DNA of 56,364 nt, taken from assembly GCA_045591745.1 (NCBI GenBank), contig JAZNTL010000120.1:1-56364 (forward strand), written 5' to 3'. Below the pieces are notes generated by a model that had not been told where the DNA came from, did not search any database, and worked only from the letters and a program-made list of their open reading frames with translations. Positions 50,376-56,364 of the stretch are shown here, one piece after another. A program made the translations under genes and the position numbers. This stretch comes from Lawsonibacter sp. Lineage in GTDB: Bacteria; Bacillota; Clostridia; Oscillospirales; Oscillospiraceae. Each line of letters opens with the position of its first letter. Position 1 is the stretch's first letter.

Positions 50376-50414
50376 GCGGGCATGATGGAATTGGTAGACA
50401 TGCGAGATTTAGGT
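50376..50414 (+). pseudogene. 5' half of host tRNA-Leu(UAG), disrupted at the anticodon loop (element junction)
   Basis: gcgggcatgatggaattggtagacatgcgagatttaggt is followed by non-tRNA sequence. A promoter TTGACT-N17-TATCAT is at 50338-50366. Confidence 0.85.
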
Positions 50415-50497
50415 GCTGTCACCTCAGTGAAGGTTTTTTCTGGCGCATAATCATGATATAATTAAAACAGCCGGTGCTTGGCACCGGCTCCATATCT

Positions 50498-50582
50498 GCG
50501 GGTATGGCGGAATTGGCAGACGTGCAGGATTTAGGTTCCTGTGCCGCAAGGCGTGTGGGTTCGACCCCCACTACCCGTACCA
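50498..50582 (+). tRNA. tRNA-Leu (UAG)
   Basis: 85 nt, with D-loop GGAATTGGCAGA, anticodon arm cagga-tttaggt-tcctg, a long variable arm, GGTTCGAC T-loop and an encoded CCA. Confidence 0.95.
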
Positions 50583-50695: not shown

Positions 50696-51598
50696 ATGAT
50701 TAGATTAACCGATTTTGATAAAAAGACACCTGATCCCGTCGAAATAGAATACCTTACATCTGTTTCTGGCGATATCCCTGTATATGAGATACACTCGTTT
50801 CATTCACTTACGCAGTTTATAGGCTTTGGAAAGTATTTAAATAGGGATTCTGGAAATGTGTATTTGCGTGGGCAAACAGATCTCTATAACGGAGTATTAA
50901 CACCATCGGCGTTAAGAGGAAACAAGAATCGCAAAACAAAAGTTGTGGAGCCACTTAATTGCGAAAAACGCATTAGCGATTATAAACACAATATTGCACT
51001 AAGCCTTAAAAACACAAAAAATTTCTGCGACCGCGATCCCGATATCGTGGAGCCTTTATTGCAACATTACGGTGTAAAGACATATTGGTTAGATATCGTT
51101 GACAATGTATGGATTGCATTATGGTTTGCACTTCATGAAACAGCCTCAACTATAATAGACAATCGTGAGTACATACATATCTTTGAAAACGATGAAAGTA
51201 AGTATGCCTATATATTTTTAATCGGTTGTGATGCAACAAAAGAATCCCAAACACAACCTGGCCTTTACGAAGGTACATCTTCTGTCGTAGTCGATCTAAG
51301 AAAAGCCATTCCTTCTTATTTTTTAAGGCCACACGCCCAACATGCACTTATGGTAAAGAAGCGTGGGGAACATTCATCATTTATGGATTATTCAGATACG
51401 ATAATTGCTATCGCTAAAGTATCTGTAGCCGACGGACTGAAATGGATTGGACAGACTGGATTAATGTCAGTACAAAGTCTGTTCCCGCCTCCATATTATG
51501 ATACTGGCTATGCAAGTTTGTTGAATGAATATCGAAACCAGAAAGCATATATTAATTTCGTAAAACAGTTTGGTTCCATTCAAAATATTTCTTATTGA
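50696..51598 (+). CDS. FRG domain-containing protein
   Basis: VYLRGQ...LTPSALR, LLQHYGVKTYWLD...NVWIALWFA and RPHAQ follow the FRG motif order; GAGGTG RBS. Confidence 0.85.
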   Translation: MIRLTDFDKKTPDPVEIEYLTSVSGDIPVYEIHSFHSLTQFIGFGKYLNRDSGNVYLRGQTDLYNGVLTPSALRGNKNRKTKVVEPLNCEKRISDYKHNIALSLKNTKNFCDRDPDIVEPLLQHYGVKTYWLDIVDNVWIALWFALHETASTIIDNREYIHIFENDESKYAYIFLIGCDATKESQTQPGLYEGTSSVVVDLRKAIPSYFLRPHAQHALMVKKRGEHSSFMDYSDTIIAIAKVSVADGLKWIGQTGLMSVQSLFPPPYYDTGYASLLNEYRNQKAYINFVKQFGSIQNISY

Positions 51599-51655: not shown

Positions 51656-51771
51656 TTCCATCACGATGTATTTATCCCTCCAATATCTGAACTTTCCCCT
51701 GTAATTGTAGAATATGGGTGTTGAGGACCAACTTCCTCGACACCCATATTTTGCATCTGGTCCTGTTTTTT
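51656..51771 (-). repeat. Degenerate copy of the recombinase 3' end (53803-53926) containing a 19-bp palindrome
   Basis: WVSRKLVLNTHILQLQGKVQILE aligns with the recombinase WALRKPILDAHILSLQEKVLEFE. The hairpin is at 51709-51752. Confidence 0.8.
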
Positions 51772-51806
51772 GAGTGGTGTATTCAACTGCGCCCACTCTT
51801 TCCTCG

Positions 51807-53123
51807 TCAACAGGAACTTATAGGCACATCAATTCTGCACCTGGCCACGCAGACATTGTTTTTTACCAGATAGCATTCTACATAGTGCGGGCCGAAAAAG
51901 CTCGTCCGCTCATTGTGATGATCTCGATTGGTCAAAGAAACCTGCCCGCGAATACAATCCCGCCGTTCAGCTTCAGCACCAATATTTCGCACCTTCCAAT
52001 AAATAAAGTAGGGCGGCGGACAATCTGTGCTTTTGATAAAAAAGTCGAGTTTTTTATTCCGACTTAACCAGCCGCCACCGCTGCGAAGAAACTGTAGCAA
52101 AAAGAAATCCCGCCACCCATCTTGTGAGACTTTACAGTCAATTTGCAAAGAATATCGTATATCCACTGGAAACATATGTTCAATAAACTCCTCAGTGGTT
52201 CTATAACTGTACTGGGCAAATTCTTTCAACACCCGATTCTCAGGAGAAGAAAACTGCTCCGAACCAAACAGTTTTTGGAGAACGGTTTCAATTCCTTCCG
52301 ATTTTTTGATTGCAGAGTTTAATTCATCATATGCGCTTTTCGCTTTTGATACAAATGCTCCGTTATCCGAATTATAAACTTTCTGATTGCTACCGACGGC
52401 AAACCAATAACTCTGATCCTTATCCAATCCCTTTAAGTATTCAAAGAGATTATCAAGAATCGTTATATAGTCGCCATAGCTTGTGTCTGCATAGTAATCA
52501 TTGGCAACGAAATGATTATATACAAGAGTATCAATTAGTAATCCACCAAAGGCGAAACCAATATTATTTTTCCAGCTTCGCATCATGTGGCAAAAGTCGT
52601 AATATAACCCCTCCGACTCAGAATTGCACGCTTCACATTCATCCTGCTCGCTAAGGGGATCTGTTGTCTTCCAAGACCCTCCATCATGAGTATCCGGGTA
52701 TTTGAACCGATCATCGCTCTGCTTGAATCCTGGTACAAGTTCGACAGTATATTTTGTGAATTCAATTACAACAACCTGTCCATCTCCACGCATCTTTGTA
52801 TTTGGATACCGCTCTTTTAACACTGCTTTTATGTCCTGCAGTAGTTGGGACTGCCCATTTGACTCATAGGCATTATATTTTTGGTACACGCTATCTGGCA
52901 AATCAAATATAATGTCCAGATCACTACTCCCTTTAATCGCGGTGTTGCGGCCTACCGACCCCACAACATACAGGTGGGATACCGTGTCTTTATCAATGTC
53001 ATAGTAGTGCTTGTTTAACTTTTTGGCAATCTCACCCGCAGTAGTCTGCATCTCGGAAAGATTGTCTAAACGTATTGCTTCACAGAATGATTTGAAATCA
53101 TCCGCCATACTCATGGGAGTCAT
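51807..53123 (-). CDS. SMODS / cGAS-DncV-like nucleotidyltransferase (CD-NTase) with C-terminal AGS-C domain
   Basis: VVGSVGRNTAIKGSSDLD (GS..R.T...SDxD), GQVVVIEF, VELVP, PDTHDGGSWKTTDP. The C-terminal YWKVRN...IRGQ...ERTSFFGPHYVECY...RIDVPI is AGS-C-like. Confidence 0.88.
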   Translation of the reverse strand: MTPMSMADDFKSFCEAIRLDNLSEMQTTAGEIAKKLNKHYYDIDKDTVSHLYVVGSVGRNTAIKGSSDLDIIFDLPDSVYQKYNAYESNGQSQLLQDIKAVLKERYPNTKMRGDGQVVVIEFTKYTVELVPGFKQSDDRFKYPDTHDGGSWKTTDPLSEQDECEACNSESEGLYYDFCHMMRSWKNNIGFAFGGLLIDTLVYNHFVANDYYADTSYGDYITILDNLFEYLKGLDKDQSYWFAVGSNQKVYNSDNGAFVSKAKSAYDELNSAIKKSEGIETVLQKLFGSEQFSSPENRVLKEFAQYSYRTTEEFIEHMFPVDIRYSLQIDCKVSQDGWRDFFLLQFLRSGGGWLSRNKKLDFFIKSTDCPPPYFIYWKVRNIGAEAERRDCIRGQVSLTNRDHHNERTSFFGPHYVECYLVKNNVCVARCRIDVPISSC

Positions 53124-53682
53124 CTGCCTTTCTCAGCGCTTCCGGAAGATATGAATCAATTTCTTCATCGGAAAACGTATTGTCTTTCTGAACATTAAGG
53201 GCTACCCTTGCCTTTTCTACTGCCTTATCCGTAGCCGCTGGTGCCTCCGCATAAATCTTATGAAGTCTGCTCGTCAATTCCTCGTACTTTGAAAACAGAA
53301 CATCAGGAGACTCTTTTTTCATCCGAATTTGTAAAATCAGTGTAATTAGCTCATCTCTAATTGCCAAGGTATCCGCAGCTGACTTTTTATGCGCAGTAGT
53401 CATTGTCTTTAAATCAAACGATTTAAAGAAGGCACTTACAAAAATGGAAACAAAAGATATAAGCGCAGAAACCAATTTAACCCACAATGCGTCCGTGAAA
53501 ACCAGCGACACAATACCAGCAGAAGTTAAAGATGCTGCCCATATTTTTGCGGTTTCCATGCGACGATATCTGTTAGTATAGATATCTGCCTGTTTCTCTT
53601 GGATTTTATGGGACCACACAACGCCACCATAGGTATTGCGAACAGTTGACTCAAGATAGTCATACCCAGTCAAGTTTTCCAT
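53098..53682 (-). CDS. SLATT domain 2-TM effector
   Basis: YGGVVWSHKIQEKQAD, two TM helices, HKKSA...IRD and a TFSDEEIDSYLP..LR tail; overlaps the CD-NTase start. Confidence 0.85.
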   Translation of the reverse strand: MENLTGYDYLESTVRNTYGGVVWSHKIQEKQADIYTNRYRRMETAKIWAASLTSAGIVSLVFTDALWVKLVSALISFVSIFVSAFFKSFDLKTMTTAHKKSAADTLAIRDELITLILQIRMKKESPDVLFSKYEELTSRLHKIYAEAPAATDKAVEKARVALNVQKDNTFSDEEIDSYLPEALRKADDSHEYGG

Positions 53683-53721
53683 ACCAAAACTCACACTCCA
53701 TAGCTAATAATATATGGTTAT

Positions 53722-53750
53722 ATTATACCATATCTTGGAGAAGTTTTCAA
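53722..53750 (-). promoter_or_regulatory. Sigma-A promoter of the SLATT-CD-NTase operon
   Basis: TTGAAA-N17-TATAAT with an extended -10 TG. Confidence 0.65.
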
Positions 53751-53772
53751 TACAGCCACACAACATACTGTG

Positions 53773-55053
53773 TCAATTGTAAACAGCGCCTACAAATATT
53801 TTTTCCATCACAATTTCATCTATCTCCTGCTCAAACTCCAGCACTTTCTCCTGCAATGACAAAATGTGGGCGTCGAGGATTGGTTTCCTCAACGCCCACA
53901 TTTTCTGCATTTGCACCAGTTTTTCCAGTTCCTCGGTGCACTGCTCCCGCACAGCTTCAGCATACTCCTGAACCGCTATATCCAATACCTCCTCATGAAT
54001 TCGATGGGAAGTGCAATAGGTTTTTCCGTTCCGGTGATACCCACAGCACACATATTCCACGCGGCGTTTGCCGTTCCAGTAGCGAATCATGGGGATGAAC
54101 ACATTGCCGCATCCCTGGCAGGTCAGCAGGTCCGCATAGCGGTGCTTAGATTGGTTCCCGTTCGCAGGTCGTGACTGCTGCTTGAGCAATTCCTGTACCT
54201 GTGCCCATTCATCTTTCTCTATGATAACCGGGAAGAAGTTTTCGTGACGATACCATTCTTTTTCACCGAGCCGTTTGACCTTACCATCGTTGGTTTCACT
54301 ACGGTGGTTGTTCAGCACGCCGGTGTATGCTTCCTCTTTCAGCACATTCTTCACGCTGGCATATGTCCAGAGGAACTGACCATCACGGGTTTTGTGCGTG
54401 TGCTGAACCTCTCTGCCGCACCGCTCGGCCCGGAGCTGCGCCGGTGTTTTTCGTCCCTGAGTGTTGAGCCGCCGTGCAATCTCTTTCTGCCCACACCCCT
54501 GCAAGTACAGAGAATAGATAATCTGCACCGTGACCGCCGCTTCCGCGTCGACCTTGATCTGTCCGGTATTCTTGTCCTTCCAGTACCCGAAGGGCGGCGT
54601 GATCACGATGCCTGCTTTCTGCTTTTGCCGATACCCGGCACGGATCTTCTTACCGATATCCTTTGCGTAATAGTCATTCATCAGTCCTCGGATGCCGATG
54701 ACCAAATCGTCCTCGTCCCGGAAAGTATCCACGCCCTCGGTAACGGACAGGACACGCACATTGCGCTCGCGCAAGTAGTCAATGAACAGTGCCGTTTGTG
54801 TCCTGTGGCGGCCAAGCCGGGACAAATCTTTTATGATGACCGCATCAATTTTACCAGCATCAACAACCGCCGTGAGCTCATCCAGCCCACGGCGGTTGAA
54901 TTTCATTCCACTCACGTTGTCATCAGAGGATTCACCAACGATGCGGTGTCCTTGGGCATCGGCAAACACCCGACAGATATTCCACTGATTGATGAGAGAG
55001 TTCTGCTCTGGGTCATCATCGTTGGACAGGCGGTAGTACAGCCAGACTCTCAT
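53773..55053 (-). CDS. Large serine recombinase
   Basis: Catalytic motif YYRLS, DDNVSG, KDLSRLGR, a recombinase domain (PFGY...IARRLN) and a zinc ribbon CQGC...C...C. Confidence 0.93.
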   Translation of the reverse strand: MRVWLYYRLSNDDDPEQNSLINQWNICRVFADAQGHRIVGESSDDNVSGMKFNRRGLDELTAVVDAGKIDAVIIKDLSRLGRHRTQTALFIDYLRERNVRVLSVTEGVDTFRDEDDLVIGIRGLMNDYYAKDIGKKIRAGYRQKQKAGIVITPPFGYWKDKNTGQIKVDAEAAVTVQIIYSLYLQGCGQKEIARRLNTQGRKTPAQLRAERCGREVQHTHKTRDGQFLWTYASVKNVLKEEAYTGVLNNHRSETNDGKVKRLGEKEWYRHENFFPVIIEKDEWAQVQELLKQQSRPANGNQSKHRYADLLTCQGCGNVFIPMIRYWNGKRRVEYVCCGYHRNGKTYCTSHRIHEEVLDIAVQEYAEAVREQCTEELEKLVQMQKMWALRKPILDAHILSLQEKVLEFEQEIDEIVMEKIFVGAVYN

Positions 55054-56363
55054 GCACCCACCTCCCAGAACTCTTTTCCGAGGATAGCTCCCAGACGGTC
55101 GTAGTCATAGTTCCATGCGCTCCACGACTCGGTGACATCACCGTTTTCGTAGGTTTGACCGTGTGTCCGGAAGGGAGCCTTGAGGTGAATGTCCACATTC
55201 AGCTTGCCATCCTGCTCGGTGATATAGATCTTCTCCACCAGCAGCCGCAGGTTGGCCTCGGAGATATACCCTTCCGCAAGAATGTCATCCATCAGGCTGA
55301 TGTCCCGTTTCAGAGTTGCCTGCCGCTTTTTCAATGCGGCATCCAGATTCTCCAGTTCGGATATCTGTCTTTTGATTGCCGCAATGTCTTCCTCCCGCTT
55401 CTGGATCATGCGGTCGTAGCGTTCGGCATTTGCCTTCTCCCGGATCCGTTCCATGAGGATAACCTCCATTTCTTCTTCCAGCGATTCGATTTTTGTATTC
55501 AGCTTTCGGAGCTGCTCCACCGTTTTCACCTGCTGGGGTATCCAGTGGTCGAGCATCTTTTGCAGGTTGTACCAGTTCCGCTCATACAACCGTTTCGTGT
55601 TTTTCAGTTCCTCCATGATGAGGTGGTCCAGCAGTTCCTCTCGGATCACATGGGAGGAACAGTGTTCCTTGCCGTATCGCAAATAGGTGTCGCAGATGTA
55701 TTCCACCCGCTCACGCTCTTTCAGCTTGACGCGCTTGCCCACAAAGGTGCGGCCGCAGTCATCGCAGCGGAGCAGACCGCTGTAGCGCAGGATGGGACGG
55801 TCCTCTCCCGCACGGACATTCACCTCTTTTCGCTGTGCCAGCAGGCTCTGCACTTCCTGCCACACATCCTTTGAGACGATGGGCGGGAAGAAATTCTCGT
55901 GTCGGAATTGCTCCTCCGGCTCGGTGAAGCGGAATGTCTTATTGATCTTGCTACGCTCACTTTTGTGACAGATCAGCGTTCCGATGTACGACTCATCCCG
56001 TAGGATGCGGGAGACCATGGTGGAGTCCCAGATGTTTTTCTTGCGGATGTGGTCTTGGGTGTTGGGCTGCCGTTTCTGCAGCAGTTCCACCTGAATCTGG
56101 GCGGGCGTTTTCCGCTTCTCCTCATTCAGTCTTCTGGCGATGGACTTCATACCGCAACCGGACACATACAGAGAGTAGATCAGGCGGACAGTTTCAGCGG
56201 CATCCTCCACGGGACGCCTGACGCAGTCCGAGCCGGACAGCACCGTTTCAAACTCACTTCTACTCAGATGCCTTAAGTCCTGCTTTTTCTGTGCCTGTTC
56301 CCGTTTCCGATCCTGCTCCAGGAAGTCTGCGACCTCCTTTGGCACCGATACTTGCTCACCGTT
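55050..56363 (-). CDS. Serine recombinase C-terminal part (recombinase, Zn ribbon, coiled coil) fused to an unrelated N-terminus; no catalytic domain in the window
   Basis: AAETVRLIYSLY...IARRLN, YIGTL and CDDCG are present, but YxRxS and SRxxR are absent. The frame is open to the window edge and has an ATGA overlap with the next recombinase. Confidence 0.8.
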   Translation of the reverse strand, partial: NGEQVSVPKEVADFLEQDRKREQAQKKQDLRHLSRSEFETVLSGSDCVRRPVEDAAETVRLIYSLYVSGCGMKSIARRLNEEKRKTPAQIQVELLQKRQPNTQDHIRKKNIWDSTMVSRILRDESYIGTLICHKSERSKINKTFRFTEPEEQFRHENFFPPIVSKDVWQEVQSLLAQRKEVNVRAGEDRPILRYSGLLRCDDCGRTFVGKRVKLKERERVEYICDTYLRYGKEHCSSHVIREELLDHLIMEELKNTKRLYERNWYNLQKMLDHWIPQQVKTVEQLRKLNTKIESLEEEMEVILMERIREKANAERYDRMIQKREEDIAAIKRQISELENLDAALKKRQATLKRDISLMDDILAEGYISEANLRLLVEKIYITEQDGKLNVDIHLKAPFRTHGQTYENGDVTESWSAWNYDYDRLGAILGKEFWEVGA

Positions 56364-56364
56364 G

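What the first reader, a model, noticed from the sequence alone, without database searches (positions are those of the whole stretch)
51656..53926. Defence operon bracketed by two diverged copies of a recombinase-embedded palindrome: possible cassette boundary sites
Seen: about 115 nt downstream of the CD-NTase (51656-51771) aligns in direct orientation with the last ~40 codons of the serine recombinase (53803-53926), but with frameshifts. Both copies contain a hairpin with 19-bp arms and a 6-nt loop: aaaatgtgggcgtcgagga-ttggtt-tcctcaacgcccacatttt (53861-53904) and agaatatgggtgttgagga-ccaact-tcctcgacacccatatttt (51709-51752). Two arm positions differ compensatorily (G:C to A:T and C:G to T:A). 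The internal mismatch is flipped (C/A versus T/G), as if the core had been inverted. Inference: symmetry is kept while coding capacity is lost. The palindrome may therefore be a recombination or binding site through which cargo units with their own promoter are stacked next to the recombinase, like an integron array but driven by a serine recombinase. The simpler alternative is a scar left by one related element recombining into another.
Basis: partly seen in the sequence, partly recalled or inferred. Interest (0 to 1): 0.85.

Follow-up and report, generated by a model that had tools for sequence, protein, structure and literature searches.

The report
Integrase-embedded hairpin bordering swappable defence slot
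A mobile element of gut bacteria keeps a 44-base hairpin inside its recombinase gene, right where a highly variable slot of anti-phage genes begins; the hairpin likely works as a transcription stop and a swap point, and the second copy is likely a scar left when one such element landed inside another.

Summary
The locus is the left end of a tRNA-Leu-targeting integrative mobilizable element with a relaxase and two large serine recombinases. Its integration sites lie in the tRNA anticodon loop and do not resemble the 44-mer. The palindrome is selected at DNA level: synonymous sites are nearly invariant, and paired changes alter amino acids on both arms. It marks the border of a hypervariable defence slot, and linkage between cargo and core breaks across it. 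Second copies recur (8 of 43 protein-found loci that reach the tRNA; six junction types; never three copies), always between two cargo modules. They look like decaying recombinase remnants rather than cassette sites: the central dinucleotide drifts, upstream coding remnants persist, and nested elements are seen directly. Most cargo ends tail-to-tail with the recombinase with no stronger hairpin between, so a terminator-like role is most likely (about 0.6). A recombinase-driven cassette array is not excluded (about 0.13). Three earlier scan notes describe stacked serine-recombinase islands at tRNA genes; none matched this sequence.

The parts
50376..50414 (+). 5' half of a tRNA-Leu gene, broken at the anticodon loop (left junction of the element)
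   Evidence: sequence
50408..50433 (+). attL: core shared with attR, followed by the element's att arm; crossover inferred at TT 50409-50410
   Evidence: the same arm follows tRNA 5' halves in dozens of loci, and its inverted counterpart precedes the tRNA 3' half at the far end
50498..50582 (+). complete element-borne tRNA-Leu(TAG); the only TAG tRNA-Leu found in this 81%-complete genome
50583..50629 (+). terminator-like inverted repeat behind the tRNA
   Evidence: I11
50696..51598 (+). FRG-domain gene (weak PDC-S15 match), distal cargo module; 86% identical to the FRG protein directly behind an in-frame recombinase 3' end in L088
51656..51798 (-). decayed, frameshifted remnant of an LSR2 3' end
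51709..51752 (.). palindrome copy B, core inverted; folds better on the FRG (+) strand (-35.4 vs -24.4 kcal/mol)
51807..53123 (-). CD-NTase (SMODS + AGS_C), CBASS cyclase
53098..53694 (-). SLATT_4 two-transmembrane CBASS effector
53722..53750 (-). sigma-70-like promoter match (11 of 12, extended -10) ahead of the CBASS operon
   Evidence: consensus match only
53773..55053 (-). LSR2: large serine recombinase, 426 aa, catalytic motif intact, about 130 aa shorter than LSR1 at the C-terminus
53861..53904 (.). palindrome copy A, inside LSR2 codons 384-398 (KMWALRKPILDAHIL)
55050..56364 (-). LSR1, here without its catalytic domain and open at the contig end

Best explanation
The 44-mer is a hairpin kept by selection inside the last recombinase gene of a tRNA-Leu-targeting mobilizable element; it likely terminates transcripts coming from the cargo side, it likely serves as the last crossover point for ordinary homologous recombination, and the second copy is likely a remnant of a second, nested element. 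Step 1 (shown by sequence): the element breaks a tRNA-Leu gene in the anticodon loop and brings a complete tRNA-Leu, which the next element can break in turn. Step 2 (shown): nested elements exist, with a second element's right end inside the cargo slot. Step 3 (inferred): crossover between the repeated cores removes one core and joins new cargo to an old core. Beyond the palindrome there is almost no perfect homology left, so the recombinase tail travels with its cargo. Step 4 (inferred): more rarely a deletion or an illegitimate junction keeps both cargos, leaving palindrome-tail-cargo behind the first cargo, as here (CBASS in front of FRG). Step 5 (inferred): the stranded hairpin is kept as a terminator between the FRG and CD-NTase genes; its core was probably inverted by template switching.
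For: DNA-level selection: 13 third-codon positions in and just before the arms have mean diversity 0.024, against 0.345 in the rest of the gene; the lowest equal run elsewhere is 0.169 (92 loci). One clade changes M to Q and I to C together and keeps pairing. 7 of 19 pairs have double changes. Terminator geometry: 37 of 49 cargo types start with a gene convergent on LSR2, the median gap is 12 nt, 16 of 37 overlap it, and 30 of 37 have no hairpin stronger than -15 kcal/mol before the palindrome. The Gln codon that extends the cargo-strand U-tract to six is CAA in 91 of 92 loci, while the 13 other conserved Gln codons are mostly CAG; the one exception is this window, whose adjacent cargo is co-oriented. 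The genome holds 77 palindromes with arms of 18 bp or more; 55 begin A-rich and 61 end T-rich. Second copies fold better on the cargo strand in 5 of 7 variants, coding copies in 1 of 34. Scar: attR plus a tRNA 3' half lies 169-2075 nt behind the palindrome in 7 loci, two of them the same contig. Two or more stacked attL units occur in 25 of 67 distinct loci. L088 shows the FRG module directly behind an in-frame recombinase 3' end. Crossover: distance within a cargo type relative to between types is 0.18 right of the site and 0.78-1.09 left of it; perfect 27-mers total 18.7 in the palindrome, 99 in the 635 nt left of it and 0.4 right of it.
Against: No RNA data, so termination is untested. The simple terminator scan did not call either copy. 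In coding copies the invariant T.G pair makes the hairpin stronger on the recombinase mRNA than on the cargo strand (33 of 34 variants). U-tracts of second copies are short (about 3-4 U). A terminator inside a reading frame could also cut the recombinase mRNA short. This window has one attL, whereas a nested origin predicts two unless they collapsed; loci with a second copy are not richer in stacked attL (3 of 9 vs 22 of 58). No core or far-end remnant was found between the two copies in 11 loci tested. About 12 non-coding copies begin within 10 nt of the palindrome's left edge, sharper than random trimming would give. The linkage step is equally compatible with site-specific crossover.
Confidence: 0.6

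Rival explanations
1. The 44-mer is a second site-specific recombination site, probably for the C-terminally shortened LSR2, and cargo units are cassettes that bring their own recombinase tail.
For: Its size and symmetry resemble an att site: the element's inferred attP is also a near-perfect inverted repeat with arms of about 23 bp. The element has two catalytically intact recombinases. Linkage breaks across the site (step 0.91, 95% bootstrap 0.44-1.43, 14 cargo clusters). One left haplotype carries at least 13 different tails. Module 11 stands, with the same junction, in front of two different distal modules, and in L096 the displaced tail is still in frame and 221 of 237 nt identical to a primary tail.
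Against: The att arm and the palindrome arm share at most 8 positions at the best offset. The central dinucleotide is not kept in 4 of 6 second-copy types. No locus of 160 has three copies. In most second copies the tail is frameshifted, so excision would damage LSR2. The polymorphism just right of the centre does not travel strictly with the tail (15 of 48 pairs discordant), and tails recombine internally. Paired changes point to base pairing rather than independent half-site binding (inference).
Confidence: 0.13
2. The hairpin acts mainly on the recombinase mRNA (premature termination, RNase III cutting or 3' stabilisation) or as an operator, damping recombinase output. An analogue is sib retroregulation of lambda int (recalled, not looked up).
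For: Coding copies fold better on the mRNA strand in 33 of 34 variants (-40.9 vs -34.7 kcal/mol in this window). The stem is 19 bp or longer. It is kept in cargo-less elements too (3 of 49 types).
Against: The T.G pair is also fixed by Leu387 and Asp394. The conserved extra A lies on the side that makes a cargo-strand U-tract, while the mRNA-side tract varies from position +21. Copies freed from coding shift towards cargo-strand pairing.
Confidence: 0.17
3. The second copy is a neutral scar; its symmetry comes from template switching, which copies one arm onto the other without selection.
For: An inverted core, seen here and in L032, is what template switching produces (own knowledge). The L036 and L175 variants have gathered 3-5 mismatches. 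In copy B, 7 of 38 arm positions differ from the consensus, not far from the 25% divergence of the tail.
Against: It cannot explain the constraint in coding copies. In the module-11 type the tail is deleted 34 nt after the centre while the arms differ at one position, and the hairpin begins 5 nt after a convergent stop codon.
Confidence: 0.1

Closest known systems
Integrative and mobilizable elements of Firmicutes with serine integrases, and their tandem or nested accretion (PMC5704250 and PMC12084326, matched passages read)
   Same: Own relaxase without a mating apparatus; serine recombinase; site-specific integration; nested and decayed composites; many defence genes in Oscillospiraceae IMEs.
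   Different: The passages read describe serine-integrase IMEs disrupting dispensable genes and tRNA sites used by tyrosine integrases. They do not mention a recombinase pair that cuts a tRNA anticodon loop while supplying a whole new tRNA, nor a hairpin inside the integrase gene.
Integrons (10.1101/2024.07.02.601686, search listing and start of abstract; the mechanism is recalled)
   Same: Variable, defence-rich cargo next to a recombinase, with a palindromic site at the border.
   Different: No tyrosine integrase, at most two sites per locus, cargo mostly convergent and with its own promoters, sites decaying.
Staphylococcal cassette chromosomes with CcrA/CcrB (recalled, no call)
   Same: A tandem pair of large serine recombinases, one chromosomal site, stacked composites, defence cargo.
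   Different: The target is a tRNA anticodon loop, not rlmH; a MOBP relaxase is present; the second recombinase is shortened.
Archaeal suicidal integrases SSV1, pTN3, pT26-2 (PMC8371274, matched passages read)
   Same: A functional DNA site inside the recombinase gene, and chimeric genes made by homologous recombination between co-resident elements.
   Different: Those are tyrosine recombinases whose attP splits the gene. Here the att sites lie outside the gene.
Bidirectional intrinsic terminators (own knowledge)
   Same: A-tract, GC-rich stem, short variable loop, T-tract; position between convergent genes.
   Different: This one is embedded in a reading frame and constrains the protein sequence.

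Membership tests
IME (integrative mobilizable element) | own recombinase and attL/attR ends | tested here: met
   attL at 50408-50433; attR with the matching tRNA 3' half in relatives G054, G187, G197. The window's own attR is beyond the contig end and was not found in the genome.
IME (integrative mobilizable element) | relaxase and mobilisation genes | tested here: met
   PF03432 relaxase and MobC/NikA upstream of LSR1 in relatives; no relaxase match in this incomplete genome, so this copy may be decayed.
IME (integrative mobilizable element) | excision and transfer by a helper element | not testable with these tools
   needs PCR or mating
Integron-like cassette array | array of repeated sites, one per cassette | tested here: not met
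   139 loci with one site, 21 with two, none with more
Integron-like cassette array | the same cassette with precise ends in different contexts | tested here: inconclusive
   one case, module 11
Integron-like cassette array | circular cassettes or empty sites | tested here: inconclusive
   no joint between the copies among the 15 of 46 joints shown for four contig sets; contigs drop rare forms
Serine-integrase att site | inverted half-sites of 20-25 bp around a 2-bp core | tested here: met
   44 bp, arms of 19-22 bp
Serine-integrase att site | central dinucleotide shared by partner sites | tested here: not met
   CC kept in 2 of 6 second-copy types; TT in copy B
Serine-integrase att site | bound and cut by the recombinase | not testable with these tools
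   in vitro assay needed
Intrinsic terminator | GC-rich stem with covarying pairs | tested here: met
Intrinsic terminator | U-tract behind the stem | tested here: inconclusive
   six U on the cargo strand in 91 of 92 coding copies; about 3-4 U in second copies; not called by the scan
Intrinsic terminator | placed just behind genes pointing at it | tested here: met
   37 of 49 cargo types are convergent; the distal gene points at the second copy in all six types
Intrinsic terminator | RNA 3' ends map there | not testable with these tools
   needs 3'-end RNA sequencing
CBASS type I | CD-NTase plus effector, no ancillary genes | tested here: met
   PADLOC cyclase E 1.8e-165, 2TM effector E 4.5e-62

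The most novel reading that the evidence does not exclude
LSR2, which lacks the second half of its coiled coil, is a dedicated resolvase for a site written into its own gene. After one element nests in another's tRNA, it recombines the two palindromes and shuffles defence cargo together with its own C-terminal helix: a serine-recombinase cassette exchanger with a self-renewing landing site.
Probability: 0.13. Interest if true: 0.85.

Novelty: new variant of a known kind. Interest (0 to 1): 0.52.

Why it matters
It defines, with precise borders, a defence hotspot in common gut Oscillospiraceae. The slot holds 85 protein clusters; 29 of 63 scanned match known or candidate defence systems and 34 have no PADLOC match at 1e-8, which gives a ready list of candidates. 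The element supplies a whole tRNA and so renews its own target, a simple route to repeated nesting. The recombinase pair with its inferred attP and attB can be tested directly. The hairpin is a clear case of nucleic-acid structure overriding protein sequence. If LSR2 recombined the palindrome, it would be a new kind of cassette system.

Tried and rejected
The palindrome as the integration att site: rejected. A palindrome at the matching position of LSR1: none in 4 relatives or in the window. A known RNA family: only chance-level miRNA and sRNA matches below the gathering score. More distant LSR2 orthologues for deeper covariation: in 401 genomes of the order, only 3 besides this one matched above 60% identity, and the next matches were at 40% or lower; viral contigs gave 3 loci already held. 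Plasmid and phage collections: no match. An attR motif search in 401 genomes with one mismatch was at control level; 6 exact matches. A syntenic empty site in 5 same-genus genomes: not found. Placing the crossover with polymorphisms inside the palindrome: inconclusive, since only one site is informative and it is labile. Reads: no RNA holder listed; four contig sets showed no joint between the copies among the rows displayed; a full joint list for that stretch remains open. Literature: 8 searches found no description of this element or hairpin; the library lacks most subscription papers, and the supplement of PMC12084326, not opened, might list such an element.
Full report
Observation. In copy B three of the four changed pair positions are changed on both arms; the chance of that overlap is about 0.004 if changes fell at random. 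The mismatches are G.T on the recombinase mRNA strand in copy A and on the opposite (FRG) strand in copy B. A contig from another study spans copy B and the CD-NTase.

Anatomy. From left to right: a tRNA-Leu 5' half, an att arm, a complete tRNA-Leu(TAG), an FRG gene (+), copy B, CD-NTase and SLATT effector (-), LSR2 with copy A, and a headless LSR1 at the contig end. GC drops from about 0.53 in the recombinases to 0.37-0.45 in the cargo. In relatives LSR1 is a full 552-aa recombinase, preceded by a PF03432 relaxase, MobC/NikA and an AAA_25 ATPase, so this is an IME. A family search found the LSR2 3' end in 12 of 300 genomes. A pattern scan of GTDB gave 65 stretches, nearly all Oscillospiraceae or related Clostridia. 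A protein scan of metagenomes confirmed 531 stretches, of which the best 80 were kept.

Integration sites. In dozens of loci a tRNA-Leu 5' half is joined at the anticodon loop to one conserved arm. At the far end the inverted arm is joined to a tRNA 3' half. In G054 the two halves pair as one tRNA; in G187 the 3' half matches the innermost of four stacked 5' halves. From these ends I infer an attP with arms of about 23 bp centred on TT. It shares at most 8 positions with a palindrome arm. Because the element carries a whole tRNA, the next element can integrate into it. Two or more attL units are stacked in 25 of 67 distinct loci, and in 7 loci (two are the same contig) a second element's right end sits inside the slot. 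Nested accretion is thus shown by sequence, and it is a described behaviour of Firmicute IMEs (PMC5704250, PMC12084326; matched passages only).

The palindrome is selected. It is present in 78 of 80 loci found by protein; the other two contigs end before or within it. Third-codon diversity is 0.024 there and 0.345 elsewhere. One clade reads KQW...HCL in place of KMW...HIL and keeps pairing. On 30 hand-picked distinct variants, 95.6% of cells pair and 7 of 19 pairs show double changes; 0 of 500 shuffles reach the covariation score. Caveats: many of the 30 were found by a symmetric pattern, the sequences are related, and one row (L067, a Bacteroidaceae bin) may be unrelated. LSR1 has no such hairpin.

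It bounds a defence slot. Between the palindrome and the tRNA lie 85 protein clusters. I scanned 63 of the 85; 29 matched PADLOC at 1e-8 (restriction-modification, Avs2, Septu, Abi, RmrAT, PDC systems and others). Among 65 loci of the main clade, same-cargo pairs are about as different as random pairs left of the palindrome (ratio 0.73-0.83 over 660 nt) and much closer right of it (0.13-0.27). A bootstrap over 14 cargo clusters gives a step of 0.91 (0.44-1.43). This does not require a site-specific enzyme. Perfect 27-mers are plentiful left of the site and in it, and almost absent right of it (99, 18.7, 0.4). The whole gene is mosaic, four clusters stay linked past the site, and tails recombine internally. 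The single informative polymorphism inside the palindrome did not fix the crossover point.

Second copies. Of 163 oriented loci, duplicates included, 160 have the site and 21 have two; none has three. Among protein-found loci that reach the tRNA, 8 of 43 have two. They fall into six junction types, of which two pairs may share an origin. Each lies between two cargo modules, 59-136 nt from the stop of a gene pointing at it. The window's distal FRG module stands directly behind an in-frame recombinase 3' end in L088 and behind other modules in L080, L133 and L165. For a cassette reading: module 11 has the same junction before two different modules, and about 12 non-coding copies start within 10 nt of the left edge. 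Against it: the central dinucleotide drifts, most tails are frameshifted, the window, L036 and L080 keep 45-110 nt of decayed recombinase upstream (L080 read by eye), the sharp junctions of modules 11 and 34 coincide with the upstream gene's stop codon, and two variants are losing their pairing. Against the nested origin in particular: no core remnant was found between the copies, and stacked attL units are not enriched in two-copy loci. A one-sided illegitimate insertion would give the same picture.

What the hairpin does. It has the build of this genome's long A-tract/stem/T-tract palindromes. Most cargo ends tail-to-tail with LSR2, often overlapping it, with no strong hairpin between. A synonymous A that lengthens the cargo-strand U-tract is kept against the gene's codon habit. 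Copies freed from coding shift towards cargo-strand pairing. I therefore commit to a terminator-like role that shields the recombinase and relaxase genes from cargo transcription. This is inferred; no RNA was examined. In coding copies the hairpin is stronger on the mRNA strand, so a role on the recombinase message remains a fair rival.

Comparison and novelty. It works like an IME or SCC-type island with a defence hotspot. It fails the integron tests that could be run. Eight literature searches found no description; three papers were read as matched passages, the rest as listings. Earlier scan notes had no sequence match; three word matches describe stacked serine-recombinase islands at tRNA genes in other arrangements (unchecked).

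Verdict. The feature is real, recurrent and functional, and it belongs to an apparently undescribed IME family. The integron-like mechanism has about 13% probability. Interest 0.52.

Noticed in passing
window 50376-50582; G187 (L027/L041), L096, L172, L178: The element brings a complete tRNA-Leu and inserts in the anticodon loop of the resident one, leaving stacks of up to four tRNA-half plus attL units; each insertion renews the target.
   Followed up: partly
window 55050-56364: LSR1 lacks its catalytic domain; its first 45 or so residues match nothing in the related loci. Natural deletion or contig-end chimera is not settled.
   Followed up: partly
L112-L191 and L043-L107, between palindrome and tRNA: 34 of 63 scanned slot proteins have no PADLOC match at 1e-8, among them the frequent cluster 6 (L133:1418-2395), cluster 25 (L175:13076-14212) and a 1272-aa protein (L111:4715-8530): candidate defence genes.
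   Followed up: no
window 50696-51598; L112, L120, L176, L075: FRG-domain genes recur as at least five different modules of this slot, which supports a defence role.
   Followed up: no
L104, about 33-73 nt behind the palindrome centre: A tRNA-Leu 5' half is fused into the palindrome's right arm.
   Followed up: no
L164:174-11275: Two 429-aa recombinase-family frames lie in tandem; only the second carries the palindrome.
   Followed up: no
L032:8016-8057: A second, independent case of an inverted core in a stranded palindrome beside tRNA-Leu.
   Followed up: partly
LSR2 versus LSR1: LSR2 ends after the first predicted coiled-coil helix, about 130 aa short of LSR1, and its last 25-35 residues are supplied by whichever cargo module is attached.
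   Followed up: no
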